Shown: piece after piece, positions 7,871-55,796 of the stretch
Layout of the letters: the number at the start of each line of letters is the position of its first letter
How positions within the stretch are numbered: position 1 is the first letter of the stretch
Sequence record: MT782071.1
DNA from: Escherichia phage JN02
DNA length: 64,000 nucleotides
Reading direction: 5' to 3' (one strand)
Made by a program: the position numbers and the translations under genes
Notes under the pieces: generated by a model
Seen by the model: the letters and a program-made list of their open reading frames with translations, nothing else
Told to the model about the DNA's origin: nothing
The model's database searches: none

Positions 7871-8398
7871 TTAAGCTTTACGAGGAGACACATAGCGAGT
7901 GATTTCAGATTCTTTAACAACTCGGAAGTCACCTAAGAATACGATATTGTATAACTTTTCACCATCTTCAACCCATTGGTCACTAATGAAGCCACACATA
8001 ATATCAGTTTTGCTTGGATATCCGTATTCGTCGATGTAATCAAATTCTTTATCGGTCTGGAATTCAACGCCTTTGCAAAGGGCCCATTTAAACTGTGTAG
8101 TAGGCTCAACGATATCGTTTGAAGCAAATTGGACTCGTATATGTTTTTCAAGGAATTTAGGACTTACGTAAGCATACTGGGCATCTTGTCCGCCAAAACT
8201 AGGAATGATTCGAACTTTAACTTCTTTAATACGTCCCATGCCATTTGTGCGAAGTCCGACAACTTCAACCAGACGACCTGCGGCTTTAGACCGGGATGCA
8301 GTTGATACACGTTTAATTTCACCAATAGTAATCATAATTTTTCTCTCTTTGTTTAAGTTGAATTCATTATACTCCATCCATCCTTGGATGTACAACAT
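7871..8398 (-). CDS. hypothetical protein, member of tandem paralog triplet
   Basis: 175 aa; motif DQWVEDGEKLYNIVFLGDFRVV. Confidence 0.45.
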   Translation of the reverse strand: MLYIQGWMEYNEFNLNKERKIMITIGEIKRVSTASRSKAAGRLVEVVGLRTNGMGRIKEVKVRIIPSFGGQDAQYAYVSPKFLEKHIRVQFASNDIVEPTTQFKWALCKGVEFQTDKEFDYIDEYGYPSKTDIMCGFISDQWVEDGEKLYNIVFLGDFRVVKESEITRYVSPRKA

Positions 8399-8934
8399 TA
8401 ATTTAGAATATTAACTACTGCACTACGTGGAACCACACTAAAGTCACCGGCATGAACAACGTTCAGAAGTTCAACCCCGTCTTCAATCCACTGGTCAGTT
8501 ACCCAGCCACTTACCGGTCCAGCGAATGGTCGACGAATTGAAACTGCTTTACACAACAAGTCTGTAGGCTCAATAGGCTTAATCAGAGTACCGTACATAC
8601 AAGCGATATCCATATCAAAGTGGAGACCATCTTTAACAGGTGCTTCTTCAATCAACAGTTCAAAGTCGGTGCTTGGAAGGGCGGTAGTAGAAATTGTACC
8701 GTATGAATTTTTAATTTCTAAGAATAACCAAGGGCCTTCAACTTGTTTGATGAAGTTAACAATAGTGAAACTATTACCTTGAGTGGCACCTAAAATTTCA
8801 CAAAACTTTTCATAAGCTCGCACTGAAGCACCGTACCAGTTGATTTGTTTTTCGTCTTTCAGGATGTAAGTAGCCGTAGTATTGATATTCATAATGTTTT
8901 CCTGTTTGGTTAAGATAGAAAGATTATACTCCAA
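8398..8934 (-). CDS. hypothetical protein, member of tandem paralog triplet
   Basis: 178 aa; motif DQWIEDGVELLNVVHAGDFSVV. Confidence 0.45.
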   Translation of the reverse strand: MEYNLSILTKQENIMNINTTATYILKDEKQINWYGASVRAYEKFCEILGATQGNSFTIVNFIKQVEGPWLFLEIKNSYGTISTTALPSTDFELLIEEAPVKDGLHFDMDIACMYGTLIKPIEPTDLLCKAVSIRRPFAGPVSGWVTDQWIEDGVELLNVVHAGDFSVVPRSAVVNILN

Positions 8935-8954
8935 CCATCCTTGGTTGTAAACTG
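8908..8954 (-). repeat. 46-bp promoter cassette, copy 1 (near-identical to 50301..50346)
   Basis: gttaagatagaaagattatactccaaccatccttggttgtaaactg; minus strand gives GTTTAC -35, inverted repeat caacca/tggttg, TATAAT -10. Confidence 0.6.
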
Positions 8955-47294: not shown

Positions 47295-47846
47295 TTAACT
47301 TAAACGTCTTTCTAAATATTCAATGTATTCCGCTGCGGCTTGCATCAGATTACCTTCATAACCGTCATTATTTTCTTGGGCGGCTAATTTAGCTAAAGCA
47401 TAAGAAATACGTTCACCTTCGAATTCGCCAAGTCCACTGCCACAAACTACTTGGTCAATTTCTTCGAGTTCATCTATTGAATGGGATTCCCAGAAGCACC
47501 AAAGAGAAGTATCACGGTCATAGATGCAAAGTTTCTCACCTGTGTTCAACATCACTTCGATAATGCCATGGTCGCCATAACCATCTTCGGTAGTAGTACC
47601 AATTACCTTGACGATTGTTCCTTTCTTTAATTCAGGAAACTTGTCTTGTAGTTCTTCGTCTTCTTTAACAATCTTGAACCATTTACCGCGAGTTTCAGAA
47701 ATATTCATATCAATATCCTCTATAAAAGTTACGATGAGAACGTTTAGCTTTGCGAAGCTGACGTTTAGTAGGACGAACTGTAAATGGTTGTCCAGAGAAA
47801 AAATTCGGATCGGTTTTAATAAGCAAATACCAATCATGTTTGCCAT
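47295..47846 (-). CDS. hypothetical acidic protein
   Basis: likely real start at the internal MNISETRG (about 47708) with GAGGA RBS; the N-terminal 46 codons of the ORF look non-coding. Confidence 0.4.
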   Translation of the reverse strand: MANMIGICLLKPIRIFSLDNHLQFVLLNVSFAKLNVLIVTFIEDIDMNISETRGKWFKIVKEDEELQDKFPELKKGTIVKVIGTTTEDGYGDHGIIEVMLNTGEKLCIYDRDTSLWCFWESHSIDELEEIDQVVCGSGLGEFEGERISYALAKLAAQENNDGYEGNLMQAAAEYIEYLERRLS

Positions 47847-48365: not shown

Positions 48366-48643
48366 TTAAAATATTCTCGTAGTTGGTCAAATCCACCAAT
48401 ATGACTTCCATCAGGAGCAAACACTTGAGGCATAGTCAATCCGACTTGTGATTCACGTCCAAGCTTAACCAGAAGCTCAGCAATTTTCTCATCATCGAAC
48501 ACACCTTTTTCTGGCATAACATTAATGAATTCGAATGGCTGTTTCTTAACAGTCAGCAATCGTTTCGCATTATCACAATAAATGCATTTATGAATAGTAG
48601 AGTCATACCCGTACACTTTAAACATTATTTTTCCTTTCATCAA
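48362..48643 (-). CDS. nrdC: glutaredoxin/thioredoxin NrdC
   Basis: MFKVYGYDSTIHKCIYCDNAKRLL...GGFDQLREYFK matches T4 NrdC as recalled; start probably at MFKVYGY. Confidence 0.88.
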   Translation of the reverse strand: MMKGKIMFKVYGYDSTIHKCIYCDNAKRLLTVKKQPFEFINVMPEKGVFDDEKIAELLVKLGRESQVGLTMPQVFAPDGSHIGGFDQLREYFK

Positions 48644-49031
48644 TTAAATATGCAACGCCAAATACAATACATGTAATAAAACCTGTGATACAGATAGAAA
48701 CCAACAACACTGTACCAAAGAACCAAATCAAGTTATCTTTAGTAGTTTGTTTGATATCCATCTCACGAATTTCTATAGCTATCGTATCACCTTTATTCAG
48801 AAGCGTATAAAATGATGGAGATACACGCCTGTCAAAAACTCGTCCTTGCTCATCTTTATAGACTGCAATAAATTCTAATTTAGAATATTTTCCTGTAGAT
48901 TGGCCTGAGATTAATTCCACTACCTCCACAGGAATTACTTTAGTTTCCATGTAAGTATTCTGGCTGTTCCAAATGAATGGAATAATAGCAAAAACTAAAG
49001 CTGCGATAAAACAACGAAGGCTATATCTCAT
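48618..49031 (-). CDS. membrane protein
   Basis: 137 aa; N- and C-terminal hydrophobic helices. Confidence 0.4.
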   Translation of the reverse strand: MRYSLRCFIAALVFAIIPFIWNSQNTYMETKVIPVEVVELISGQSTGKYSKLEFIAVYKDEQGRVFDRRVSPSFYTLLNKGDTIAIEIREMDIKQTTKDNLIWFFGTVLLVSICITGFITCIVFGVAYLIDERKNNV

Positions 49032-49336
49032 TATAATGTTCTCTCAAATTTGTGGAAGCATTTACGGCATTTCAATTTCAAGTTATCAGTAGTCCAGTTA
49101 ACCAGTTGGACTTGGATAGTTCCACATTCCGGGCATGGATGTTTTGCTGCCGATTTGGCAGCATTTTCACGTCGTTCAACCATTTTCATGATTTCGTTCC
49201 ATACCGGAGGAACGAACTCTTCTTCACCGTGGATTTTATCTCGCTGAACAAATTCAATCTTTGAACTATCGTCAATAAACTTAACCAAGCCATGATTAGT
49301 GCTCATATCAATATCCTCTAAAAGACGTAGTTTCAT
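49031..49336 (-). CDS. zinc-ribbon protein
   Basis: 101 aa; CPECG...CRKC. Confidence 0.4.
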   Translation of the reverse strand: MKLRLLEDIDMSTNHGLVKFIDDSSKIEFVQRDKIHGEEEFVPPVWNEIMKMVERRENAAKSAAKHPCPECGTIQVQLVNWTTDNLKLKCRKCFHKFERTL

Positions 49337-50286
49337 TATAACACCTCAATGGCATTTCGTAAACCATCCGCTTTTGCATTCAGAGCTTTTAATGATTTAG
49401 TTTGTTCTGCAATCTGGGCTTCGACTTCTTTCAGACGAGATTTGAGATATTCGCGTTCTTCTCTTAAGTTATCAACTTTTTCTACTTTAGGTTCTTTAAT
49501 AGACTTAGGTTTATACGTATTAGGGTTCTTCAGCTTAATTTTAATACGAGAACTGAATAACATTGAACCGTTATCTTCGGTTTCGTCATACATTTCTACT
49601 ACGTCCATGATTTTTAACATCATACGAAGTTTATAAGACAGCGAACGAACGGTTTTGTTGTGCTTATTAATTTCTTCGGCTTTCATTGTACCGAGATTAC
49701 GTGAGTAGTAATAAGGAACCTGGATATCAATTGACAATGATGCGTTACCATTGCCAGTTGGTTTGAATACTGCAGTAACCCAATCCTTAACATGAACCGT
49801 ATTTGTACGGTCATCGCCGCCTGTGAATAATTTACGTGAATGTTTAAAAAGCATATTCACTTGGTTATTGAATTCACACGCAAATTTATCAGCAAATTTA
49901 GTTTCAGGAATGGTAGATAACCAATCAGCTAAATGAGTCTTTTTAACATCGTTAATAATAGTAAATTCAACCAAATCAGTTTTAGATGTCACAGATTTAA
50001 TAAAGCTTGGCTTCATAAAGTTTTTAATGTTATCACGAGCCACAGTAGAAGATAATAAACGAGAACGTTTAAACCATTGAAGCAGCGTCCCTAATGAATG
50101 AGAATACGCATTCTGAGTATCTTTACAGATATGATTTTCTTGACCTGTGTATGTACCAAAATCTCTAAGAATACCACTTACTACATTTCGGTGTGGAACA
50201 TCAAATCCTAATGAACCGGAAGCACGTTGGGCATGAACGTTAGCGATAAGACCTGCAAAATAATCAATGTAATGTGAACGTGTCAT
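49336..50286 (-). CDS. hypothetical protein with C-terminal coiled coil
   Basis: 316 aa; C-terminal heptad-rich segment LREEREYLKSRLKEVEAQIAEQTKSLKAL. Confidence 0.4.
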   Translation of the reverse strand: MTRSHYIDYFAGLIANVHAQRASGSLGFDVPHRNVVSGILRDFGTYTGQENHICKDTQNAYSHSLGTLLQWFKRSRLLSSTVARDNIKNFMKPSFIKSVTSKTDLVEFTIINDVKKTHLADWLSTIPETKFADKFACEFNNQVNMLFKHSRKLFTGGDDRTNTVHVKDWVTAVFKPTGNGNASLSIDIQVPYYYSRNLGTMKAEEINKHNKTVRSLSYKLRMMLKIMDVVEMYDETEDNGSMLFSSRIKIKLKNPNTYKPKSIKEPKVEKVDNLREEREYLKSRLKEVEAQIAEQTKSLKALNAKADGLRNAIEVL

Positions 50287-50300
50287 AATATTTTCCTCTC

Positions 50301-50346
50301 GTTAAGATAGAAAGATTATACTCCAACCATCCTTGGTTGTAAACTG
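50301..50346 (-). repeat. 46-bp promoter cassette, copy 2 (near-identical to 8908..8954)
   Basis: same 46-mer gttaagatagaaagattatactccaaccatccttggttgtaaactg; early promoter with inverted repeat. Confidence 0.6.
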
Positions 50347-50348
50347 AT

Positions 50349-51284
50349 TTATGGTTTTAATGCATTCATTGCGTTAAAAAGTTTAGAGTACTGCAACTGG
50401 AGCTTGGTAACTACTTGTTGAGCATCACGAAGCTTAGCTTGTGCTTTGTCAAGTTCAACAGACAGTTGGTCCATAGTGGCCTTGATTTGATTATAATAGT
50501 AATCTTCGGCAGGAAGAAGACCGTTAGAGATTTCCAGTTTAGTCGACGGTGAAGTGTATATAGATGGAGCAGTAAAATATGCACCTAGAACTTCAGCATT
50601 GCCAATTGGGGTTGCAGTAATTGACGCTTCGAAATTTGCATTTTCCTTTTTAAGATTTTGATAGTATTCAGAGTCTTTGTGCCACCATGGCGCAGGAACC
50701 TTTTTACCAATAGATACACGGGCCTGGATAGCGATATGGCCCTTATTCTTGATAGGGTTGATAATATTAAGCTCACGAGAATAAATTGCTTTAATCTGGT
50801 GAATATTATCACCTAACACTTCCAACGCTTGGTGGAATACACGAGCAACGTTATCATTCTTAGGTTTATACGTAAGAGTGAACTCGTTCTCACTGATAAC
50901 CATGATTTCTAACTTATCGTAAGTATATTTCAAATGTTTCATGTTAATTGCTTGAGGACGAATACGAGAAGCAATGGCCATCAGATTGTTAAGGTTATTC
51001 CGGAACTGCTTAGCGAAATATTGTCCTTCACCGCCAATACAAAAATTACGAAGTTTCTGTTTGGCTAATAAACGGCTGAACTCACCATTTTTAATGAACT
51101 CTTTAACGGGTGTGTTAGTAACGCATTCAAATTGAGTAAACTTACGAGAAGTAATCCCATAATATGAACAGATTTCCTCAATCTCTTCAGGAGTCTTTAC
51201 AGGCATACGGATAGGATTAGGACCTGGAGTATATGCGTTCGAGGTAAATTCTTTGATAAGTTCTCTACGTGTAATAAAAGCCAT
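50349..51284 (-). CDS. hypothetical protein with C-terminal coiled coil
   Basis: 311 aa; C-terminal MDQLSVELDKAQAKLRDAQQVVTKLQLQ. Confidence 0.4.
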   Translation of the reverse strand: MAFITRRELIKEFTSNAYTPGPNPIRMPVKTPEEIEEICSYYGITSRKFTQFECVTNTPVKEFIKNGEFSRLLAKQKLRNFCIGGEGQYFAKQFRNNLNNLMAIASRIRPQAINMKHLKYTYDKLEIMVISENEFTLTYKPKNDNVARVFHQALEVLGDNIHQIKAIYSRELNIINPIKNKGHIAIQARVSIGKKVPAPWWHKDSEYYQNLKKENANFEASITATPIGNAEVLGAYFTAPSIYTSPSTKLEISNGLLPAEDYYYNQIKATMDQLSVELDKAQAKLRDAQQVVTKLQLQYSKLFNAMNALKP

Positions 51285-51310
51285 TTTATATTCCTCATGT
51301 TGAAAAATTT

Positions 51311-51340
51311 ATTATACTCCAACCATCCTTGGTTGTACAT
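51311..51340 (-). promoter_or_regulatory. early promoter with inverted repeat (variant of the 46-bp cassette)
   Basis: attatactccaaccatccttggttgtaca; minus-strand -35 GTTGTACA-like, -10 TATAAT. Confidence 0.45.
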
Positions 51341-52335
51341 CATTCCTTAAGAAGTTTTACTACCTGAATAAGATTAGCTCGTTCTGTTTTATTTTTACTG
51401 TTTAAGCCTGCTAATCGTGAGATTTCATCGTCAGTCTGTTGAATAGTTACATTAAGTTCGTTAATCAAAGCTTCAAAGTATTTGATTTGCTCAGCATGTT
51501 TTGATTCAAATTTCTGAACCGGAATAACGTCTTGGTTCAGTTCATCAATAAGGTCTTTAAGAGCATCTTCTTGGTTGATATCATATTCAACTTCTTTTAT
51601 TTCTTCAACGAGCTCGTCTTTATATCTAACGTCTTTTAGTCCTGGAGCTGGTCCTGAAATCTCTTCTTTAAGAGTACAAACATATACATTACGGTATCTA
51701 ATGCCGTCTCGCTTGATATCAACTTCGTCAATAAATCCACAATGTTTAAGTCCAGAGCCGATTATGTCAAAATATCCTTGACGTTGTCCTTCAAACGTTA
51801 CACGAACTACTAAGACAGTTTTGCCACCAACCTTTTGAAGCTCACATTTATAAAAGTCTGTTGAACCTGAATAACGTGGATGAGTTTTAAAGTTCATCTG
51901 ACGATCTAGGCCCATTTGTAAGCGTGCTGATACGGCCATAAAACGTGTTTGGTTCTCGTTAAGATGAGCAACAATCCGTTTCAAAGGCATTTTACCCTGT
52001 TCACGACCGAACAAATCAGTACGTCCTAGATTACGCAGGATGTTGTTAGAGTTAATCATCGACAGAACGTTAAGTTTATTCAGCGCGCTGAAGATTCCAT
52101 CGGCCATTGATTTTCCGTAACCTTTACACGCTTTAATAAGCGCTCGCGGTAGATTAGTATAGATTTCAGACGGCATATGAAAATCAAATTTACTAGTCAA
52201 TAATTGATGAACTTGGATAGCAATTTGCTCATAATTAAGTGCTCTGCGATCGTTATGGTCTTTAAACCACACTTTAATCTGTGAAGCACATAAACCGTTA
52301 ATTTCATGTTTTACCGCATCAGATGTAATGCTCAT
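51340..52335 (-). CDS. hypothetical protein with C-terminal coiled coil
   Basis: 331 aa; C-terminal IKYFEALINELNVTIQQTDDEISRLAGL. Confidence 0.4.
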   Translation of the reverse strand: MSITSDAVKHEINGLCASQIKVWFKDHNDRRALNYEQIAIQVHQLLTSKFDFHMPSEIYTNLPRALIKACKGYGKSMADGIFSALNKLNVLSMINSNNILRNLGRTDLFGREQGKMPLKRIVAHLNENQTRFMAVSARLQMGLDRQMNFKTHPRYSGSTDFYKCELQKVGGKTVLVVRVTFEGQRQGYFDIIGSGLKHCGFIDEVDIKRDGIRYRNVYVCTLKEEISGPAPGLKDVRYKDELVEEIKEVEYDINQEDALKDLIDELNQDVIPVQKFESKHAEQIKYFEALINELNVTIQQTDDEISRLAGLNSKNKTERANLIQVVKLLKE

Positions 52336-52397
52336 AACTATTTCCTCAGATTGAATTGGAACTCAGAACCATTATAACCCGTCCTTGGGTAAAGCGT

Positions 52398-52925
52398 TTA
52401 TGCGTGAACCGTCTTTAAACGTTCTTCAAATTTCCGAAGAGTACTAATACGTTCTGCTTTCTGTTTTGTATAGTTTGCAATACGTTCTGAAGTGAGAGCG
52501 TATCGTTCATTTACTGTTTCTTTCATGAAGTCAGGGATTTCACGAGAAGCTTTAATTTCATCAAACTTATCGAGTACTGCCTGGTCTTCAGCGATTAAAT
52601 TTTCGTACATCTCGATATCTTTCTTGATAAACTCGATATCTTCCTGGGTTACTTTGGATAAACGAGATGCTTTATCCTTTTTGTACTGCTCGTTAGTTTC
52701 ACGAGACCAGAATAATGTACGTTTTTTGTTAGTGTTTTTGTAGACTTCCACAATTCCAACTGAATCGATGATAACAATCCAATTCCAACGAGATTTGAAA
52801 ATCTGACCTCCGTCCACGGTAATCTCGTTACCATAAGCAACGTCATTAAAGAACTTGCTTTGTGCTTCAGATTTAAATTTACCGTCGTTATAATTTACCA
52901 GGTTGAAAATATCTTTAGCGTTCAT
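52398..52925 (-). CDS. hypothetical protein
   Basis: 175-aa ORF with GGAGGT RBS. Confidence 0.4.
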   Translation of the reverse strand: MNAKDIFNLVNYNDGKFKSEAQSKFFNDVAYGNEITVDGGQIFKSRWNWIVIIDSVGIVEVYKNTNKKRTLFWSRETNEQYKKDKASRLSKVTQEDIEFIKKDIEMYENLIAEDQAVLDKFDEIKASREIPDFMKETVNERYALTSERIANYTKQKAERISTLRKFEERLKTVHA

Positions 52926-52983: not shown

Positions 52984-53271
52984 CTAAAAGAAACTTTTTT
53001 CGGTATTTTTTCCACTGAACCAAACCGACTTCGGGACTTTCTGTAATTTTTCGGATTTAAGTTTCTCTTCCTGTTCTTTCTTATATGCATCCTTGTCGTA
53101 CTGGAACAACTCTAGGGCATTCTTTTGCAGACGGTCTAAGGTAATTAAGGCTTTAGTTTTTCCTTTCAAGGAAGAGTCCTGGCGAACCTCCTCGCTATAT
53201 TGCATCGTAGAACTAACCATACGATGAGCATACAGTTCAACTGCGGCTTTAATTTTTTGCATAAAATCCAT
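52984..53271 (-). CDS. hypothetical protein
   Basis: 95-aa ORF. Confidence 0.35.
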   Translation of the reverse strand: MDFMQKIKAAVELYAHRMVSSTMQYSEEVRQDSSLKGKTKALITLDRLQKNALELFQYDKDAYKKEQEEKLKSEKLQKVPKSVWFSGKNTEKSFF

Positions 53272-53409: not shown

Positions 53410-54411
53410 TTATTTCAGTAAAGTTACTTCAGAGATTTCCTCCCAACCATCTTTATCAGTTGAAATAAAATCTGCTACATAAAGAGCCGTACGTAATGAT
53501 ACGTTGCGAAGACGAGATACGTTAGCCTTCATCCAGGACAATGCTTTATACGTTTCTGCATCTGTCAGACCACGTTTCTGCATCATGTCAGTAGATAATA
53601 TTACATCTTCAACTCGAACCATAATCTCTTCATTAGAGTGTACTCCAAGGTCGAGATACACTGAACGAGATACTAAAGCTTGAAGGTGTGGAGCAAGCTT
53701 CGAACCGCGTTCTAACTCTTTATCGATATCAACGTTTGTAATGAAAACGATAGTACCTTCAAACTCAAATTCTTTATCAATACCCTTATCATCGAGATAA
53801 GATGACGCAGTGCTCCAACAAACTTTGCGTTTATCTCCGGTATCTAATGCTGCTTTAAGAAGGTTCAAGATGTCCATATCTGAGAATACGTCAACGTCGT
53901 CGATTAAGAGAACGCTATCTGCATCACGGTTGAGCCAAAGTTGTTCGTAAAGGCCAATACCAGAGATTTTACCATTAATGCTTTTGTATTTGATGAAACC
54001 ATTATCGTTAGCATTATTAAGTGCTTTATCCAGAGAATACGTCTTACCAATACCAGCTGCACCTGAAATAATGAGTGAACGAATTTTGCCATCGATAATG
54101 CCATTCGTCATCATGTTCATTACTTTAAAGCGTTTGTTGATACGAGTTTTCATATCTTCAGTGCTTTCAACAACTGCAACTGGTGATGTCTCAACTCCTT
54201 CCATTACGATGTCTGATTTGAAGACCCATACTCCACGTTCAGAACCATCAATCATAACGAAAATTTTACCATCACCTAAGTGGGAACATTCAGGATTAAG
54301 CTTTGCCGGGAACCAGGTCTTTGTAGCAACATAAGAACCAGAGATTTCGTTATTACGATAGATACCTTTTTTGATTTGAACGTTGAACATTTTATTCTCC
54401 AATTTACTCAT
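53410..54411 (-). CDS. P-loop ATPase (AAA-like)
   Basis: 333 aa; Walker A GAAGIGKTY, Walker B VLLIDDVD. Confidence 0.5.
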   Translation of the reverse strand: MSKLENKMFNVQIKKGIYRNNEISGSYVATKTWFPAKLNPECSHLGDGKIFVMIDGSERGVWVFKSDIVMEGVETSPVAVVESTEDMKTRINKRFKVMNMMTNGIIDGKIRSLIISGAAGIGKTYSLDKALNNANDNGFIKYKSINGKISGIGLYEQLWLNRDADSVLLIDDVDVFSDMDILNLLKAALDTGDKRKVCWSTASSYLDDKGIDKEFEFEGTIVFITNVDIDKELERGSKLAPHLQALVSRSVYLDLGVHSNEEIMVRVEDVILSTDMMQKRGLTDAETYKALSWMKANVSRLRNVSLRTALYVADFISTDKDGWEEISEVTLLK

Positions 54412-54806: not shown

Positions 54807-55796
54807 TTATTTATAGTAAGAATTATGATTTTCGAGATAGACTTGTTCAAGGAAGTCATCCCAGAAACTCATATCTACTTTTTGTTGCATACCGTTCTTG
54901 GCAGCTTGTTCTGACGCATGTTCAACTTGGTCAACGATATCTTCTAGGAATTCTTGTACAGTTTTAAACGTATGTTTACCAAGCTTAACATCAAGAATAA
55001 ATGGAGCATCCTGAAGTGGGTAAACCAGGTCGCCTGTTTTGTAAATTTCTAATAATTGAAGTCCACCACGACATGCATGACTCAATGCTTTCCAGTCAAT
55101 ACCTTCATTAGCTTCTGCCTTACGAGCACGTTCGCCATAGTTCTCTTCTAGTTTAACAAGGATGGCATTGAACTCTTTATTGGTTAACGTGTCTTGGAAT
55201 TTACGGTCCAACAGATTATAGAATGTTTGCTTACCTGTTTTCTCGTTTTCGGTTTCAACCCATGAAGCAAATTCACCTACAGGCAGAACATTCTTCATAT
55301 GTGATAAACGAATTACTGCACCATTATCAAAGTATTGTCCCCATTCATTAGAACGTTTAAGGGCTTGACGAAGAATAGCCAGTCGAGAACCCTTGACACC
55401 ATATTTAGAAGCTTGCTTACGGACATACCCTAAATAAGATTTCATGTTAGTGGTATAGAAGCGAGACCTGTTATCTTGAATATACTTCCATACATCAGGC
55501 AAATCAGATTTAACTACTAGACTTTGTGGAGTGTGAAGCATATCTAATGCGACTGTTTCACCATCTGCAGCTAGTTTAAAGAAATATTTGAGACTATACA
55601 ACTCATGGTCAACGTCGTCTTTTGTGTTCTTAGAAGACGTGTTATTCGTGTTCTTGCTCATATGTTCTTTAACGTTACCGGTCAAGATATCACGAGCATG
55701 AGGGACGTAAATTTCTTTAAAATCGACGTCCGATTCAGGAGTAGACGTTCCATAAAGGTGACTACCAAAGTAGCCTTTCATAATTGTTTTCATCAT
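54807..55796 (-). CDS. predicted nucleotidyltransferase (Pol-beta superfamily)
   Basis: 329 aa; N-terminal GSHLYGTSTPESDVDF resembles the hG[GS]...D-x-D nucleotidyltransferase motif. Confidence 0.45.
   Translation of the reverse strand: MMKTIMKGYFGSHLYGTSTPESDVDFKEIYVPHARDILTGNVKEHMSKNTNNTSSKNTKDDVDHELYSLKYFFKLAADGETVALDMLHTPQSLVVKSDLPDVWKYIQDNRSRFYTTNMKSYLGYVRKQASKYGVKGSRLAILRQALKRSNEWGQYFDNGAVIRLSHMKNVLPVGEFASWVETENEKTGKQTFYNLLDRKFQDTLTNKEFNAILVKLEENYGERARKAEANEGIDWKALSHACRGGLQLLEIYKTGDLVYPLQDAPFILDVKLGKHTFKTVQEFLEDIVDQVEHASEQAAKNGMQQKVDMSFWDDFLEQVYLENHNSYYK

What the first reader, a model, noticed from the sequence alone, without database searches (positions are those of the whole stretch)
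49336..52335. Three consecutive ~315-aa genes with divergent N-domains and C-terminal coiled coils
ORFs of 316, 311 and 331 aa lie in tandem, each ending in a heptad-rich coiled-coil segment. Two of them (50349..51284 and 51340..52335) start right after a copy of the repeated early-promoter cassette, at 50301..50346 and 51311..51340. The arrangement suggests a diversified family of early effectors with a common oligomerisation module.
Basis: inference. Interest (0 to 1): 0.45.

Follow-up and report, generated by a model that had tools for sequence, protein, structure and literature searches.

The report
Tandem NrdC.3/.5/.6 phage paralogues
Three neighbouring genes of a T4-like coliphage are very distant copies of one ancestral gene, each ending in a coiled-coil helix; one of them belongs to the family whose T4 member is known to switch off a bacterial anti-phage defence (Dsr1), so the other two are plausible but unproven counter-defence genes.

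Summary
The three ORFs are real, conserved, purifying-selected genes on the MINUS strand of a Mosigvirus (RB69-like) genome. They are the counterparts of T4 nrdC.3 (W316, 57% id), nrdC.5 (W311, 23% id, Pfam DUF7235 E=4e-113) and nrdC.6 (W331, phrog_2257). BLASTP sees no similarity among them, but profile-profile comparison, bridging proteins from distant T4-like genera, and iterative HMM searches (with and without the C-terminal 65 residues; zero false recruits among ~340 unrelated ORFs) unite NrdC.3/.4/.5/.6 in one superfamily with a common full-length plan: helical N-domain with two motifs, beta-beta-alpha-beta-beta domain, variable linker, C-terminal heptad helix. Coiled-coil propensity is strong for W316 and W311 and moderate for W331. 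T4 nrdC.5 is experimentally an anti-Dsr1 gene (Srikant 2022), so an anti-defence role is the best-supported function; it is inferred, not shown, for these three. No solved structure or cellular homologue exists. New members of known families; the superfamily link is a modest new insight.

The parts
49336..50286 (-). W316: 316-aa orthologue of T4 NrdC.3 (36.2 kDa, pI 9.5); PHROG 1435, the family that also holds T4 NrdC.4
   Evidence: ORF; 57% id to T4 NrdC.3, E 2e-121; E 3.5e-5 to NrdC.4; phrog_1435 E 2e-105; only 4 hits in 1.84e9 representatives; dN/dS ~0.10
50349..51284 (-). W311: 311-aa divergent member of the NrdC.5 family (Pfam DUF7235 / phrog_2351), the family of the T4 anti-Dsr1 protein
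   Evidence: DUF7235 E 4e-113, 378 bits vs cutoff 30; T4 NrdC.5 DUF7235 E 5e-126; 23% id over 300 aa to T4 NrdC.5; RB69 homologue annotated NrdC.5; function of T4 nrdC.5
51340..52335 (-). W331: 331-aa member of the NrdC.6 family (phrog_2257; homologues carry precomputed PF26899); N-terminal 150 aa and C-terminal 55 aa conserved with T4-type NrdC.6, middle part diverged/expanded
   Evidence: phrog_2257 E 3e-125; 38% id over 127 aa to T4 NrdC.6; alignment; 108 homologues; AF2 model pLDDT 71
50301..50346 (-). PeSL-type early promoter cassette upstream of W316: GTTTAC-(stem-loop CAACCA AGGA TGGTTG)-TATAAT, 17-nt spacer; 46 nt identical to the copy at 8907-8952
   Evidence: TTTACA-17-TATAAT, 11/12; hairpin -6.9 kcal/mol; definition in PMC2839356 and PMC4122927
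51311..51339 (-). PeSL-type early promoter cassette upstream of W311 (TGTACA-17-TATAAT, same stem-loop); its -35 overlaps the TGA stop of W331
   Evidence: (10/12)
52371..52399 (-). MotA-box-like middle-promoter site upstream of W331: AAACGCTTTA, 13 nt (with inverted repeat ACCC/GGGT), TATAAT
   Evidence: sequence; consensus (a/t)3TGCTTtA, 12+/-1 bp from -10, PMC2988021; PmSL variant described by Comeau 2014. Consensus match only, not tested
49345..49488 (-). W316 C-terminal heptad helix, aa 267-314 (a: V R L I L A I; d: K L L V Q L L L)
   Evidence: (tail matches a generic coiled-coil protein, E 3.6e-6)
50355..50510 (-). W311 C-terminal heptad helix, aa 259-310 (single 51-residue helix, pLDDT 76-87)
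51346..51495 (-). W331 C-terminal helical hairpin, aa 281-307 and 313-330 (heptads interrupted at AGLNS)
50017..50076 (-). Superfamily motif 1 in W316 (WFKRSRLLSSTVARDNIKNF, aa 71-90); equivalents: W311 aa 63-81 (51042-51098), W331 aa 84-103 (52027-52086)
49804..49896 (-). Superfamily motif 2 in W316 (F..F..N...L....R.L..GDDR, aa 131-161); equivalents: W311 aa 89-115 (50940-51020), W331 aa 120-146 (51898-51978)
   Evidence: (same helix aligned in all three profile comparisons)

Best explanation
The three genes are paralogues of one fast-evolving, phage-restricted protein superfamily (T4 NrdC.3/NrdC.4/NrdC.5/NrdC.6) that occupies a fixed slot between nrdC.10 and nrdC in T4-like phages. Each encodes a ~36-kDa cytoplasmic protein with the same plan: helical N-domain carrying two conserved motifs, a small beta-beta-alpha-beta-beta domain, a variable low-complexity linker, and a 45-50-residue amphipathic C-terminal helix. 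Proposed mechanism (inferred): the proteins are made before replication from their own promoters (PeSL early promoters for W316 and W311; a MotA-type middle promoter plus read-through for W331), the C-terminal helix drives oligomerisation, and the divergent globular part binds and neutralises a host anti-phage defence protein; W311, as an NrdC.5/DUF7235 member, would act on a Dsr1-type SIR2 NADase or a variant of it, while W316 and W331 would act on other, unknown targets. The PeSL cassettes that flank the genes provide homology for recombination, which explains why copy number and alleles differ between phage genera. Shown: gene reality, family membership, superfamily homology, heptad/helix tails, cassette identity and position. 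Inferred: timing of expression, oligomerisation, anti-defence activity and targets.
For: Homology: NrdC.3 vs NrdC.4 hhalign 97.8%, E 7e-13; NrdC.4 vs NrdC.5 88.6%, E 2.6e-6; deeper profiles NrdC.3/4 vs NrdC.5 74%, E 2.8e-5 and vs NrdC.6 41%, E 2.9e-4, always aligning the same helix motif. Bridges: the single 324-346-aa gene in the syntenic slot of Serratia X20, Enterobacter id4496 and Klebsiella UTI-K4 is the top hit of the NrdC.5, NrdC.6 and NrdC.3/4 profiles respectively (E 1e-7, 2e-6, 4e-5), and X20~UTI-K4 BLASTP E 2e-7, X20~T4 NrdC.5 E 1e-5. Iterative hmmsearch in 394 ORFs converges from two different seeds on the same 52 proteins with no unrelated ORF, and does so again (51 proteins) after deleting the last 65 residues of every sequence. 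Structure: same order of secondary-structure elements in the W311 and W331 models; Foldseek hit lists of both overlap (Mineola 326 aa, fPS-65 308 aa, Aeromonas 65.2; adjacent Ac42 genes). Function: T4 nrdC.5 in trans restores plating of a deletion mutant on E. coli carrying dsr1 (PMC9391042). Arms-race-like pattern: W311 22% and W331 32% identical to Tequatrovirus counterparts while flanking NrdD, NrdG, gp49, NrdC.8, NrdC.10/.11 are 79-100%; copy number varies (.6/.5/.4/.3 in Tequatrovirus.6/.5/.3 here.6/.5/.4 in Dhakavirus-like) and alleles are exchanged between genera; W311 has the highest dN of the locus yet dN/dS < 1. Promoters and PeSL.
Against: Only T4 NrdC.5 has a tested function, and W311 shares just 23% identity with it, so the target may differ. 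Nothing is known for NrdC.3, NrdC.4 or NrdC.6. The mechanism of Dsr1 inhibition is unknown (no later paper found). The NrdC.6 link rests on weak individual scores (hhalign 41%) and on iterative searches in a small local database; the W311 model is poor (pLDDT 47) and global TM-scores of the Foldseek matches are low (0.2-0.5). Oligomerisation was not modelled. dN/dS gives no gene-wide sign of positive selection. Promoter assignments are consensus matches; the number of promoter-like sites in the region equals the shuffle expectation (22 vs 21.7).
Confidence: 0.55

Rival explanations
1. The proteins are accessory host-takeover or housekeeping factors unrelated to immunity (for example modulators of a host enzyme, nucleoid or membrane process); the anti-Dsr1 effect of T4 NrdC.5 is a special case or indirect.
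For: No function is known for NrdC.3.4.6; no similarity to any known anti-defence protein or any solved structure; purifying selection throughout; basic pI 8.1-9.5 would also suit nucleic-acid or membrane association.
Against: The only experimental datum in the superfamily is counter-defence; extreme divergence next to conserved neighbours, variable copy number and dispensability in the laboratory host are typical of host-range/anti-defence genes.
Confidence: 0.25
2. The paralogues do not act independently but assemble through their similar C-terminal helices into one hetero-oligomeric complex.
For: Tails are positionally equivalent, end in the same L..A..LK pattern and align in register better than reversed decoys; the genes are always adjacent.
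Against: The set of paralogues differs between genera and distant phages have only one copy; T4 NrdC.5 alone supplied in trans is enough against Dsr1, although other paralogues may still have been present in that phage; tail similarity is not significant on its own.
Confidence: 0.15
3. Three unrelated ORFan genes that merely share a convergent coiled-coil tail (no common ancestry).
For: Pairwise BLASTP among the three finds nothing (E >= 0.23); direct hhalign of the window clades alone is insignificant (C5 vs C6, C3 vs C6).
Against: Profile links, bridging proteins and convergence of iterative searches persist after the tails are removed, with no false recruits and without recruiting the heptad-tailed NrdC.8 family; shared secondary-structure order.
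Confidence: 0.05

Closest known systems
T4 NrdC.5 (Pfam DUF7235, phrog_2351), the anti-Dsr1 counter-defence protein of Srikant, Guegler and Laub 2022
   Same: W311 matches DUF7235 end to end (E 4e-113), sits at the same position between the nrdC.6-like and nrdC.3/4-like genes, has the same length class and the same C-terminal P-x-E-x-[YW]-[HY] ... Q..KL..A..ALK helix.
   Different: Only 23% identical to the tested T4 protein; restricted to Mosigvirus at >80% identity; lacks two insertions of the T4 protein; activity against Dsr1 not tested.
T4 NrdC.3 and NrdC.4 (phrog_1435), uncharacterised early-region proteins
   Same: W316 is the NrdC.3 orthologue (57% id, full length); NrdC.3 and NrdC.4 align end to end with invariant FK.SRLLS, GD.R and M[DE].VE motifs.
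   Different: The window has no NrdC.4; the W316 allele is closer (77-79%) to the NrdC.3 of some Tequatrovirus-like phages than those are to T4's own.
T4 NrdC.6 (phrog_2257 / PF26899), uncharacterised
   Same: W331 shares the N-terminal 150 aa (38% id) and the C-terminal PV...KH..QI.YF...helix module.
   Different: Middle ~120 aa diverged and longer in W331; the T4 reference protein itself has lost the C-terminal helix.
PeSL / PmSL cassettes of T4-type phages (Arbiol 2010; Comeau 2014)
   Same: Strong sigma70-type early promoter TTTACW-N17-TAYWAT with a stem-loop between -35 and -10, repeated, intergenic, flanking variable genes of a hyperplastic region.
   Different: Described for RB49/phi1, T4/PST and KVP40/nt-1; the Mosigvirus stem-loop sequence (CAACCA AGGA TGGTTG) is its own variant; terminator activity and recombination not tested here.
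DSAD1, the phage inhibitor of DSR2 (SPbeta-like phages)
   Same: Functional analogy only: a phage protein that blocks a SIR2-domain NADase defence by direct binding (PMC10981675 and related).
   Different: No sequence or fold similarity was found or sought specifically; different defence (DSR2 vs Dsr1), different phage group; mechanism of NrdC.5 unknown.

Membership tests
Pfam DUF7235 (NrdC.5 family) | Score above the curated gathering threshold of PF23882 over the full model | tested here: met
   W311: 378 bits vs cutoff 30, model 1-307/307; T4 NrdC.5 420 bits; W316 and W331 do not match
Pfam DUF7235 (NrdC.5 family) | Syntenic position between the nrdC.6-type and nrdC.4/.3-type genes | tested here: met
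   Same order in Tequatrovirus, Mosigvirus and Dhakavirus-like loci
Anti-Dsr1 counter-defence proteins (function of T4 NrdC.5) | Restores phage growth on cells expressing dsr1 | not testable with these tools
   Shown only for T4 nrdC.5 (PMC9391042); W311 is 23% identical
PHROG 1435 (NrdC.3/NrdC.4) | Full-length profile match | tested here: met
   W316 E 2e-105, 1-316 on 1-333/334; T4 NrdC.3 and NrdC.4 in the same PHROG
PHROG 2257 / PF26899 (NrdC.6) | Full-length profile match | tested here: met
   W331 E 3e-125; all 108 homologues carry precomputed PF26899; PF26899 itself is absent from the local Pfam copy, so not scored directly
NrdC.3-.6 superfamily (proposed here) | Common ancestry of the N-terminal and middle domains | tested here: met
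   hhalign, bridging proteins (82, 83), tail-less iterative search converging on 51 proteins with no false recruit (85)
NrdC.3-.6 superfamily (proposed here) | Same three-dimensional fold | tested here: inconclusive
   Same order of secondary structure and overlapping Foldseek hit lists, but W311 model pLDDT 47, W316 not modelled, TM-scores 0.2-0.5
Coiled-coil proteins | Continuous heptad repeat with hydrophobic a/d over at least 4 heptads in a predicted helix | tested here: met
   W316 and W311: ~7 heptads, score equal to GCN4/tropomyosin, 0/500 shuffles; helix in AF2. W331: weaker, interrupted. Score is ad hoc, not a standard predictor
Coiled-coil proteins | Actual oligomerisation through the helix | not testable with these tools
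   No multimer prediction available (structure jobs exhausted); needs SEC-MALS or cross-linking
PeSL cassettes | Early promoter consensus TTTACW-N17-TAYWAT | tested here: met
   TTTACA-17-TATAAT (50343..50315) and TGTACA-17-TATAAT (51339..51311) (consensus)
PeSL cassettes | Associated stem-loop, possibly between -35 and -10 | tested here: met
   6-bp stem, 4-nt loop, -6.9 kcal/mol, z -2.3; kept by compensatory changes in other copies (definition)
PeSL cassettes | Repeated, intergenic, next to variable genes | tested here: met
   Four copies in the window, 0 expected; flank the most divergent genes of the locus
PeSL cassettes | Promoter and terminator activity; recombination between copies | not testable with these tools
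   Shown for phi1/RB49 elements only (PMC2839356)
T4 middle (MotA-dependent) promoters | MotA box (a/t)3TGCTTtA 12+/-1 bp upstream of TAtaaT | tested here: met
   AAACGCTTTA-N13-TATAAT at 52399..52371, 9/10 box positions; activity not tested
Thioredoxin (database label on many homologues) | Thioredoxin fold / CxxC motif / Pfam thioredoxin match | tested here: not met
   No thioredoxin family hit for any of the three; label is propagated from the gene name nrdC.x

The most novel reading that the evidence does not exclude
The NrdC.3/.4/.5/.6 superfamily, present at one syntenic slot throughout the T4-like phages (Tevenvirinae and Acinetobacter Twarogvirinae), is a single adaptable inhibitor scaffold: a conserved helical and alpha/beta core that is re-tuned in each paralogue to bind a different host defence sensor or NADase, held in an oligomer by the C-terminal coiled coil, and shuffled between phages as promoter-flanked (PeSL) cassettes. 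W316 and W331 would then be inhibitors of defence systems not yet matched to any phage counter-measure.
Probability: 0.3. Interest if true: 0.65.

Novelty: new member of a known kind. Interest (0 to 1): 0.4.

Why it matters
T-even phages are the main workhorses of coliphage therapy and of defence-system research, yet most genes of their hyperplastic regions have no function. Tying NrdC.3, NrdC.4 and NrdC.6 by common descent to NrdC.5, the only member with a phenotype (anti-Dsr1), turns four families of 'hypothetical proteins' (often mislabelled thioredoxin) into a short, testable list of candidate counter-defence genes, and suggests that differences in this locus contribute to host-range differences between Tequatrovirus, Mosigvirus and Dhakavirus phages. 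It also gives a concrete example of PeSL-flanked gene cassettes carrying paralogues of one family.

Full report
WHAT THE WINDOW IS. The region is 97-99% identical to Mosigvirus (RB69/JS09-like) coliphages such as GADS24 and phage Ec2-ASingh. All genes between about 44 and 56 kb run on the minus strand. Upstream and downstream genes are the T4 nrdD, gene 49, pin, nrdC, nrdC.2, nrdC.7, nrdC.8, nrdC.10 (AAA ATPase-like) and nrdC.11 (RlaP-type nucleotidyltransferase) homologues.

THE OBSERVATION. ORFs of 316, 311 and 331 aa lie at exactly the given coordinates, each preceded by GAGG 6-9 nt before the ATG. They are present in more than 130 sequenced phages at full length and evolve under purifying selection within Mosigvirus (dN/dS 0.05-0.30), so they are real genes. 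I call them W316 (49336..50286), W311 (50349..51284) and W331 (51340..52335).

Coiled coil. No standard predictor was available, so I scored 28-residue windows against an explicit heptad matrix in all seven registers, with controls. GCN4 and tropomyosin score 25.7 and 25.0, T4 lysozyme 10.8. W316 (aa 267-314) scores 23.0 and W311 (aa 263-310) 23.3, each about 5 sd above 500 shuffles of the same protein and never reached by a shuffle. W331 (aa 281-308) scores 18.5 (z 2.4, 7/500). Among 71 minus-strand ORFs of at least 100 aa in the window they rank 1st, 3rd and 5th; rank 2 is the Rad50/SMC-like gp46, a true coiled-coil protein. The registers are continuous over about seven heptads with L/I/V/M at a and d in W316 and W311. 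AF2 predicts one 51-residue helix (259-309, pLDDT 76-87) in W311 and a helical hairpin (281-307, 313-330) in W331. In an exhaustive search of 1.84 billion proteins the only non-orthologous hit of W316 is a generic coiled-coil protein matching aa 268-310 only. So the claim holds well for two genes and moderately for the third. Oligomerisation itself was not tested.

Promoter cassettes. The 23-mer ACCAAGGATGGTTGGAGTATAAT occurs exactly at 50315-50337, 51311-51333 and 8923-8945, and with two mismatches at 8366-8388, against 0 expected. With GTTTAC/TGTACA 17 nt upstream of TATAAT these are the best sigma70-type matches on the coding strand of the region (11/12 and 10/12). Because the genes are on the minus strand, the copy at 50301-50346 lies between the stop of W311 and the start of W316, and the copy at 51311-51340 between the stop of W331 (which it overlaps) and the start of W311. 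W331 has no early cassette: its upstream region reads AAACGCTTTA, 13 nt, TATAAT (52399..52371), a 9/10 match at permitted spacing to the MotA-box middle-promoter consensus (a/t)(a/t)(a/t)TGCTTtA placed 12 +/- 1 bp from TAtaaT (PMC2988021). All of this is consensus matching; the total count of promoter-like sites in the region is what shuffles give (22 vs 21.7), so only the position, strength and exact repetition of these sites carry weight.

The cassette is a known element. Arbiol et al. 2010 (PMC2839356) and Comeau et al. [quoted passage not shown] The window's cassettes fit: the spacer holds CAACCA-AGGA-TGGTTG (-6.9 kcal/mol, z -2.3), which is kept as CATCCA...TGGATG in the copy at 8366 and as ACCC...GGGT upstream of W331.

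WHAT THE GENES ARE. Against T4: W316 is NrdC.3 (57% identity, full length, E 2e-121); W311 matches NrdC.5 (23% over 300 aa, E 8e-8); W331 matches NrdC.6 in its N-terminal half (38% over 127 aa, E 1e-18). Family libraries agree: W311 and T4 NrdC.5 both match Pfam DUF7235 end to end (E 4e-113 and 5e-126) and phrog_2351; W316, T4 NrdC.3 and T4 NrdC.4 all fall in phrog_1435; W331 and NrdC.6 in phrog_2257, whose members carry a precomputed PF26899. Synteny is conserved but the set varies: Tequatrovirus has nrdC.8-.7-.6-.5-.4-.3-.2, the window's clade nrdC.8-.6-.5-.3-.2-.7, and a Dhakavirus-like clade nrdC.8-.6-.5-.4-.2.

ARE THE THREE RELATED? BLASTP among them finds nothing. Profile methods do. 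(i) Local hhalign: NrdC.3 vs NrdC.4 97.8% (E 7e-13, 209 columns); NrdC.4 vs NrdC.5 88.6% (E 2.6e-6, 216 columns); NrdC.3 vs NrdC.5 58.7%. With deeper alignments, NrdC.3/4 vs NrdC.5 73.9% (E 2.8e-5, 191 columns), NrdC.3/4 vs NrdC.6 40.7% (E 2.9e-4, 85 columns), and the very weak NrdC.5 vs NrdC.6 alignment picks the same helix (N...L[LM]A.[AG].R[IL]) that the other two comparisons align. (ii) Bridges: using the widely conserved NrdC.10 as anchor (1303 phage records) I fetched the locus from Klebsiella, Enterobacter, Acinetobacter, Aeromonas and Serratia T4-like phages. In three of them the slot holds one 324-346-aa gene. The Serratia X20 protein is the top hit of the NrdC.5 profile (E 1e-7), the Enterobacter one of the NrdC.6 profile (E 2e-6), the Klebsiella one of the NrdC.3/4 profile (E 4e-5), and by BLASTP X20 hits the Klebsiella protein (E 2e-7) and T4 NrdC.5 (E 1e-5). 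(iii) An iterative hmmsearch at E < 1e-3 in a pool of 394 ORFs from all loci converges, whether seeded with NrdC.5 or with NrdC.3+.4, on the same 52 proteins: all 8 NrdC.3, 12 NrdC.4, 14 NrdC.5, 14 NrdC.6 and four bridge proteins, with none of about 340 unrelated ORFs and none of the heptad-tailed NrdC.8 proteins. (iv) After deleting the last 65 residues from every sequence, seeds NrdC.3+.4 and NrdC.6+Enterobacter again converge on one set of 51. The relationship therefore sits in the N-terminal and middle domains and is not an artefact of coiled-coil composition. (v) Structure: the W331 model (pLDDT 71; N-domain 81-92) and the weak W311 model (pLDDT 47) show the same order of elements: helices, beta-beta-alpha-beta-beta, disordered linker, C-terminal helix. 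Foldseek against viral models finds, for W331, 300-335-aa proteins of Acinetobacter, Enterobacter, Klebsiella and Pectobacterium T4-like phages (E 1e-7 to 2e-4, 12-16% identity) and a 308-aa Tequatrovirus protein of NrdC.3 length (E 1.7e-3); the W311 list shares several of these and hits the gene adjacent to one of W331's hits in phage Ac42. TM-scores are low (0.2-0.5), as expected for two domains on a flexible linker, so I count this as supporting, not proving. A representative alignment shows the shared plan and two motifs, [FL][KR].S[RG].L[SA]....A...L[KR]N[FY] and F..F..N...L....R.L..GD.R; their window coordinates are in the parts list.

The tails alone: among NrdC.3-.6 they align in register up to the C-terminus and score above reversed-sequence decoys (for example NrdC.3 vs NrdC.5 22.2 vs 13.9), but no pair is significant (best E 5e-4). 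The common tail is best explained as inherited with the rest of the protein.

HOW FAST THEY CHANGE. Against Tequatrovirus counterparts the locus reads NrdG 100%, NrdD 98.5%, gp49 89%, NrdC.8 85%, NrdC.10 and NrdC.11 79%, but W316 57-79%, W331 32% and W311 22%. Some Tequatrovirus-like phages carry an NrdC.3 allele 77-79% identical to W316 yet only 60% to T4's, which points to exchange between genera. Within Mosigvirus W311 has dN 0.04-0.05, 4-10 times that of NrdD or NrdC.10, at dN/dS 0.17-0.30. The families are confined to T4-like phages: no cellular homologue, no solved structure.

FUNCTION. The only experimental datum is for T4 nrdC.5. A T4 clone that had lost it in a compensatory deletion could not plate on ECOR17 or on MG1655 carrying the ECOR17 dsr1 gene, deletion of dsr1 restored plating, and nrdC.5 expressed alone from a plasmid restored it too; the authors call nrdC.5 an uncharacterised early gene (Srikant et al. 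2022, PMC9391042). I found no later mechanistic work. From this, from the hyperplastic-region setting, and from the divergence pattern, the best-supported reading is that the superfamily supplies prereplicative counter-defence proteins, with W311 the candidate for a Dsr1-type target and W316 and W331 for unknown targets. Direct binding and a role of the coiled coil in oligomerisation are inferences, by analogy with DSAD1 and DSR2. Rivals are listed separately; the 'unrelated genes with convergent tails' rival is essentially excluded.

VERDICT. These are new members of known, mostly uncharacterised T-even families; the union of NrdC.3/.4/.5/.6 in one superfamily is, as far as the searchable literature shows, not stated elsewhere, and is a moderate insight. 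Interest 0.4.

Noticed in passing
L001:12067-12894 (T4 nrdC.6) vs L004:10999-11886: The T4 reference NrdC.6 (275 aa) ends in LIFLFNNMMMKFSDYLD and lacks the C-terminal helix module (NISIQQYDDEIFRLSGL...LLKS) kept by 295-aa relatives in other Tequatrovirus-like phages; looks like a frameshift or truncation in the laboratory T4 sequence.
   Followed up: partly
L004:12948-13980: In this Tequatrovirus-like contig nrdC.4 is split into two overlapping ORFs of 193 and 158 aa, each about 97% identical to the halves of T4 NrdC.4: a frameshifted, probably inactivated copy.
   Followed up: no
L004:14033-14962 and L005:14031-14960: These Tequatrovirus-like phages carry an NrdC.3 allele 77-79% identical to the window's Mosigvirus W316 but only 60% identical to T4 NrdC.3, which indicates exchange of this gene between genera.
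   Followed up: partly
window 48618..49031 (-): The nrdC.7 homologue (predicted membrane protein, 41% id to T4) lies downstream of nrdC.2 here, whereas in T4 it lies between nrdC.8 and nrdC.6: a local gene transposition inside the hyperplastic region.
   Followed up: no
window 8366-8388 and 8907-8952 (-): Two further copies of the PeSL cassette about 41 kb away; the one at 8923-8952 is identical over about 46 nt to the copy upstream of W316, and the one at 8366 keeps the palindrome through a compensatory change (CATCCA...TGGATG).
   Followed up: partly
window 49335..49363 (-): A further strong early-promoter-like site (TTTACG-17-TATAAT with TG) lies inside the last codons of W316, just upstream of the overlapping nrdC.2 start (49336).
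   Followed up: no
GenBank records: Homologues of NrdC.3 to NrdC.11 are widely annotated 'thioredoxin', although none has a thioredoxin domain; the label is propagated from the locus name nrdC.x. One record calls the NrdC.4 homologue 'coil protein'.
   Followed up: yes
L015:12296-14129, L016:12835-14685, L019:12226-14140: In Klebsiella, Enterobacter and Serratia T4-like phages the slot holds a well conserved ~260-aa gene (65-72% identical between genera) followed by a hypervariable 324-346-aa superfamily member (28% identity over 111 aa at best). The ~260-aa gene was not recruited by the superfamily profile.
   Followed up: partly
L017:10051-18224 (Acinetobacter phage Ac42): Ac42 has several ~260-350-aa genes in this region, including adjacent 348-aa and 318-aa genes (p119, p118) whose lengths match the BFVD hits of W311 and W331; only the 348-aa one was recruited by sequence profiles. 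Suggests independent tandem expansion in Twarogvirinae.
   Followed up: partly
window 52398..52925 (-) and 52984..53271 (-): The next genes upstream (NrdC.8, 175 aa, 85% identical to T4; NrdC.9-like, 95 aa) also have heptad-rich C-terminal parts, but NrdC.8 shows no relationship to the superfamily (tail alignment at decoy level; never recruited).
   Followed up: yes
window 53410..54411 (-) and 54807..55796 (-): The NrdC.10-like AAA ATPase and NrdC.11-like RlaP-type nucleotidyltransferase form a pair conserved across T4-like phages of Escherichia, Klebsiella, Vibrio, Acinetobacter and Aeromonas (1303 records for NrdC.10); function unknown.
   Followed up: no
window 47295..47846 (-): The Pin (Lon-inhibitor) homologue is called as 183 aa with an odd hydrophobic N-terminal extension; T4 Pin is 161 aa and the match covers 141 aa, so the true start is probably an internal ATG.
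   Followed up: no
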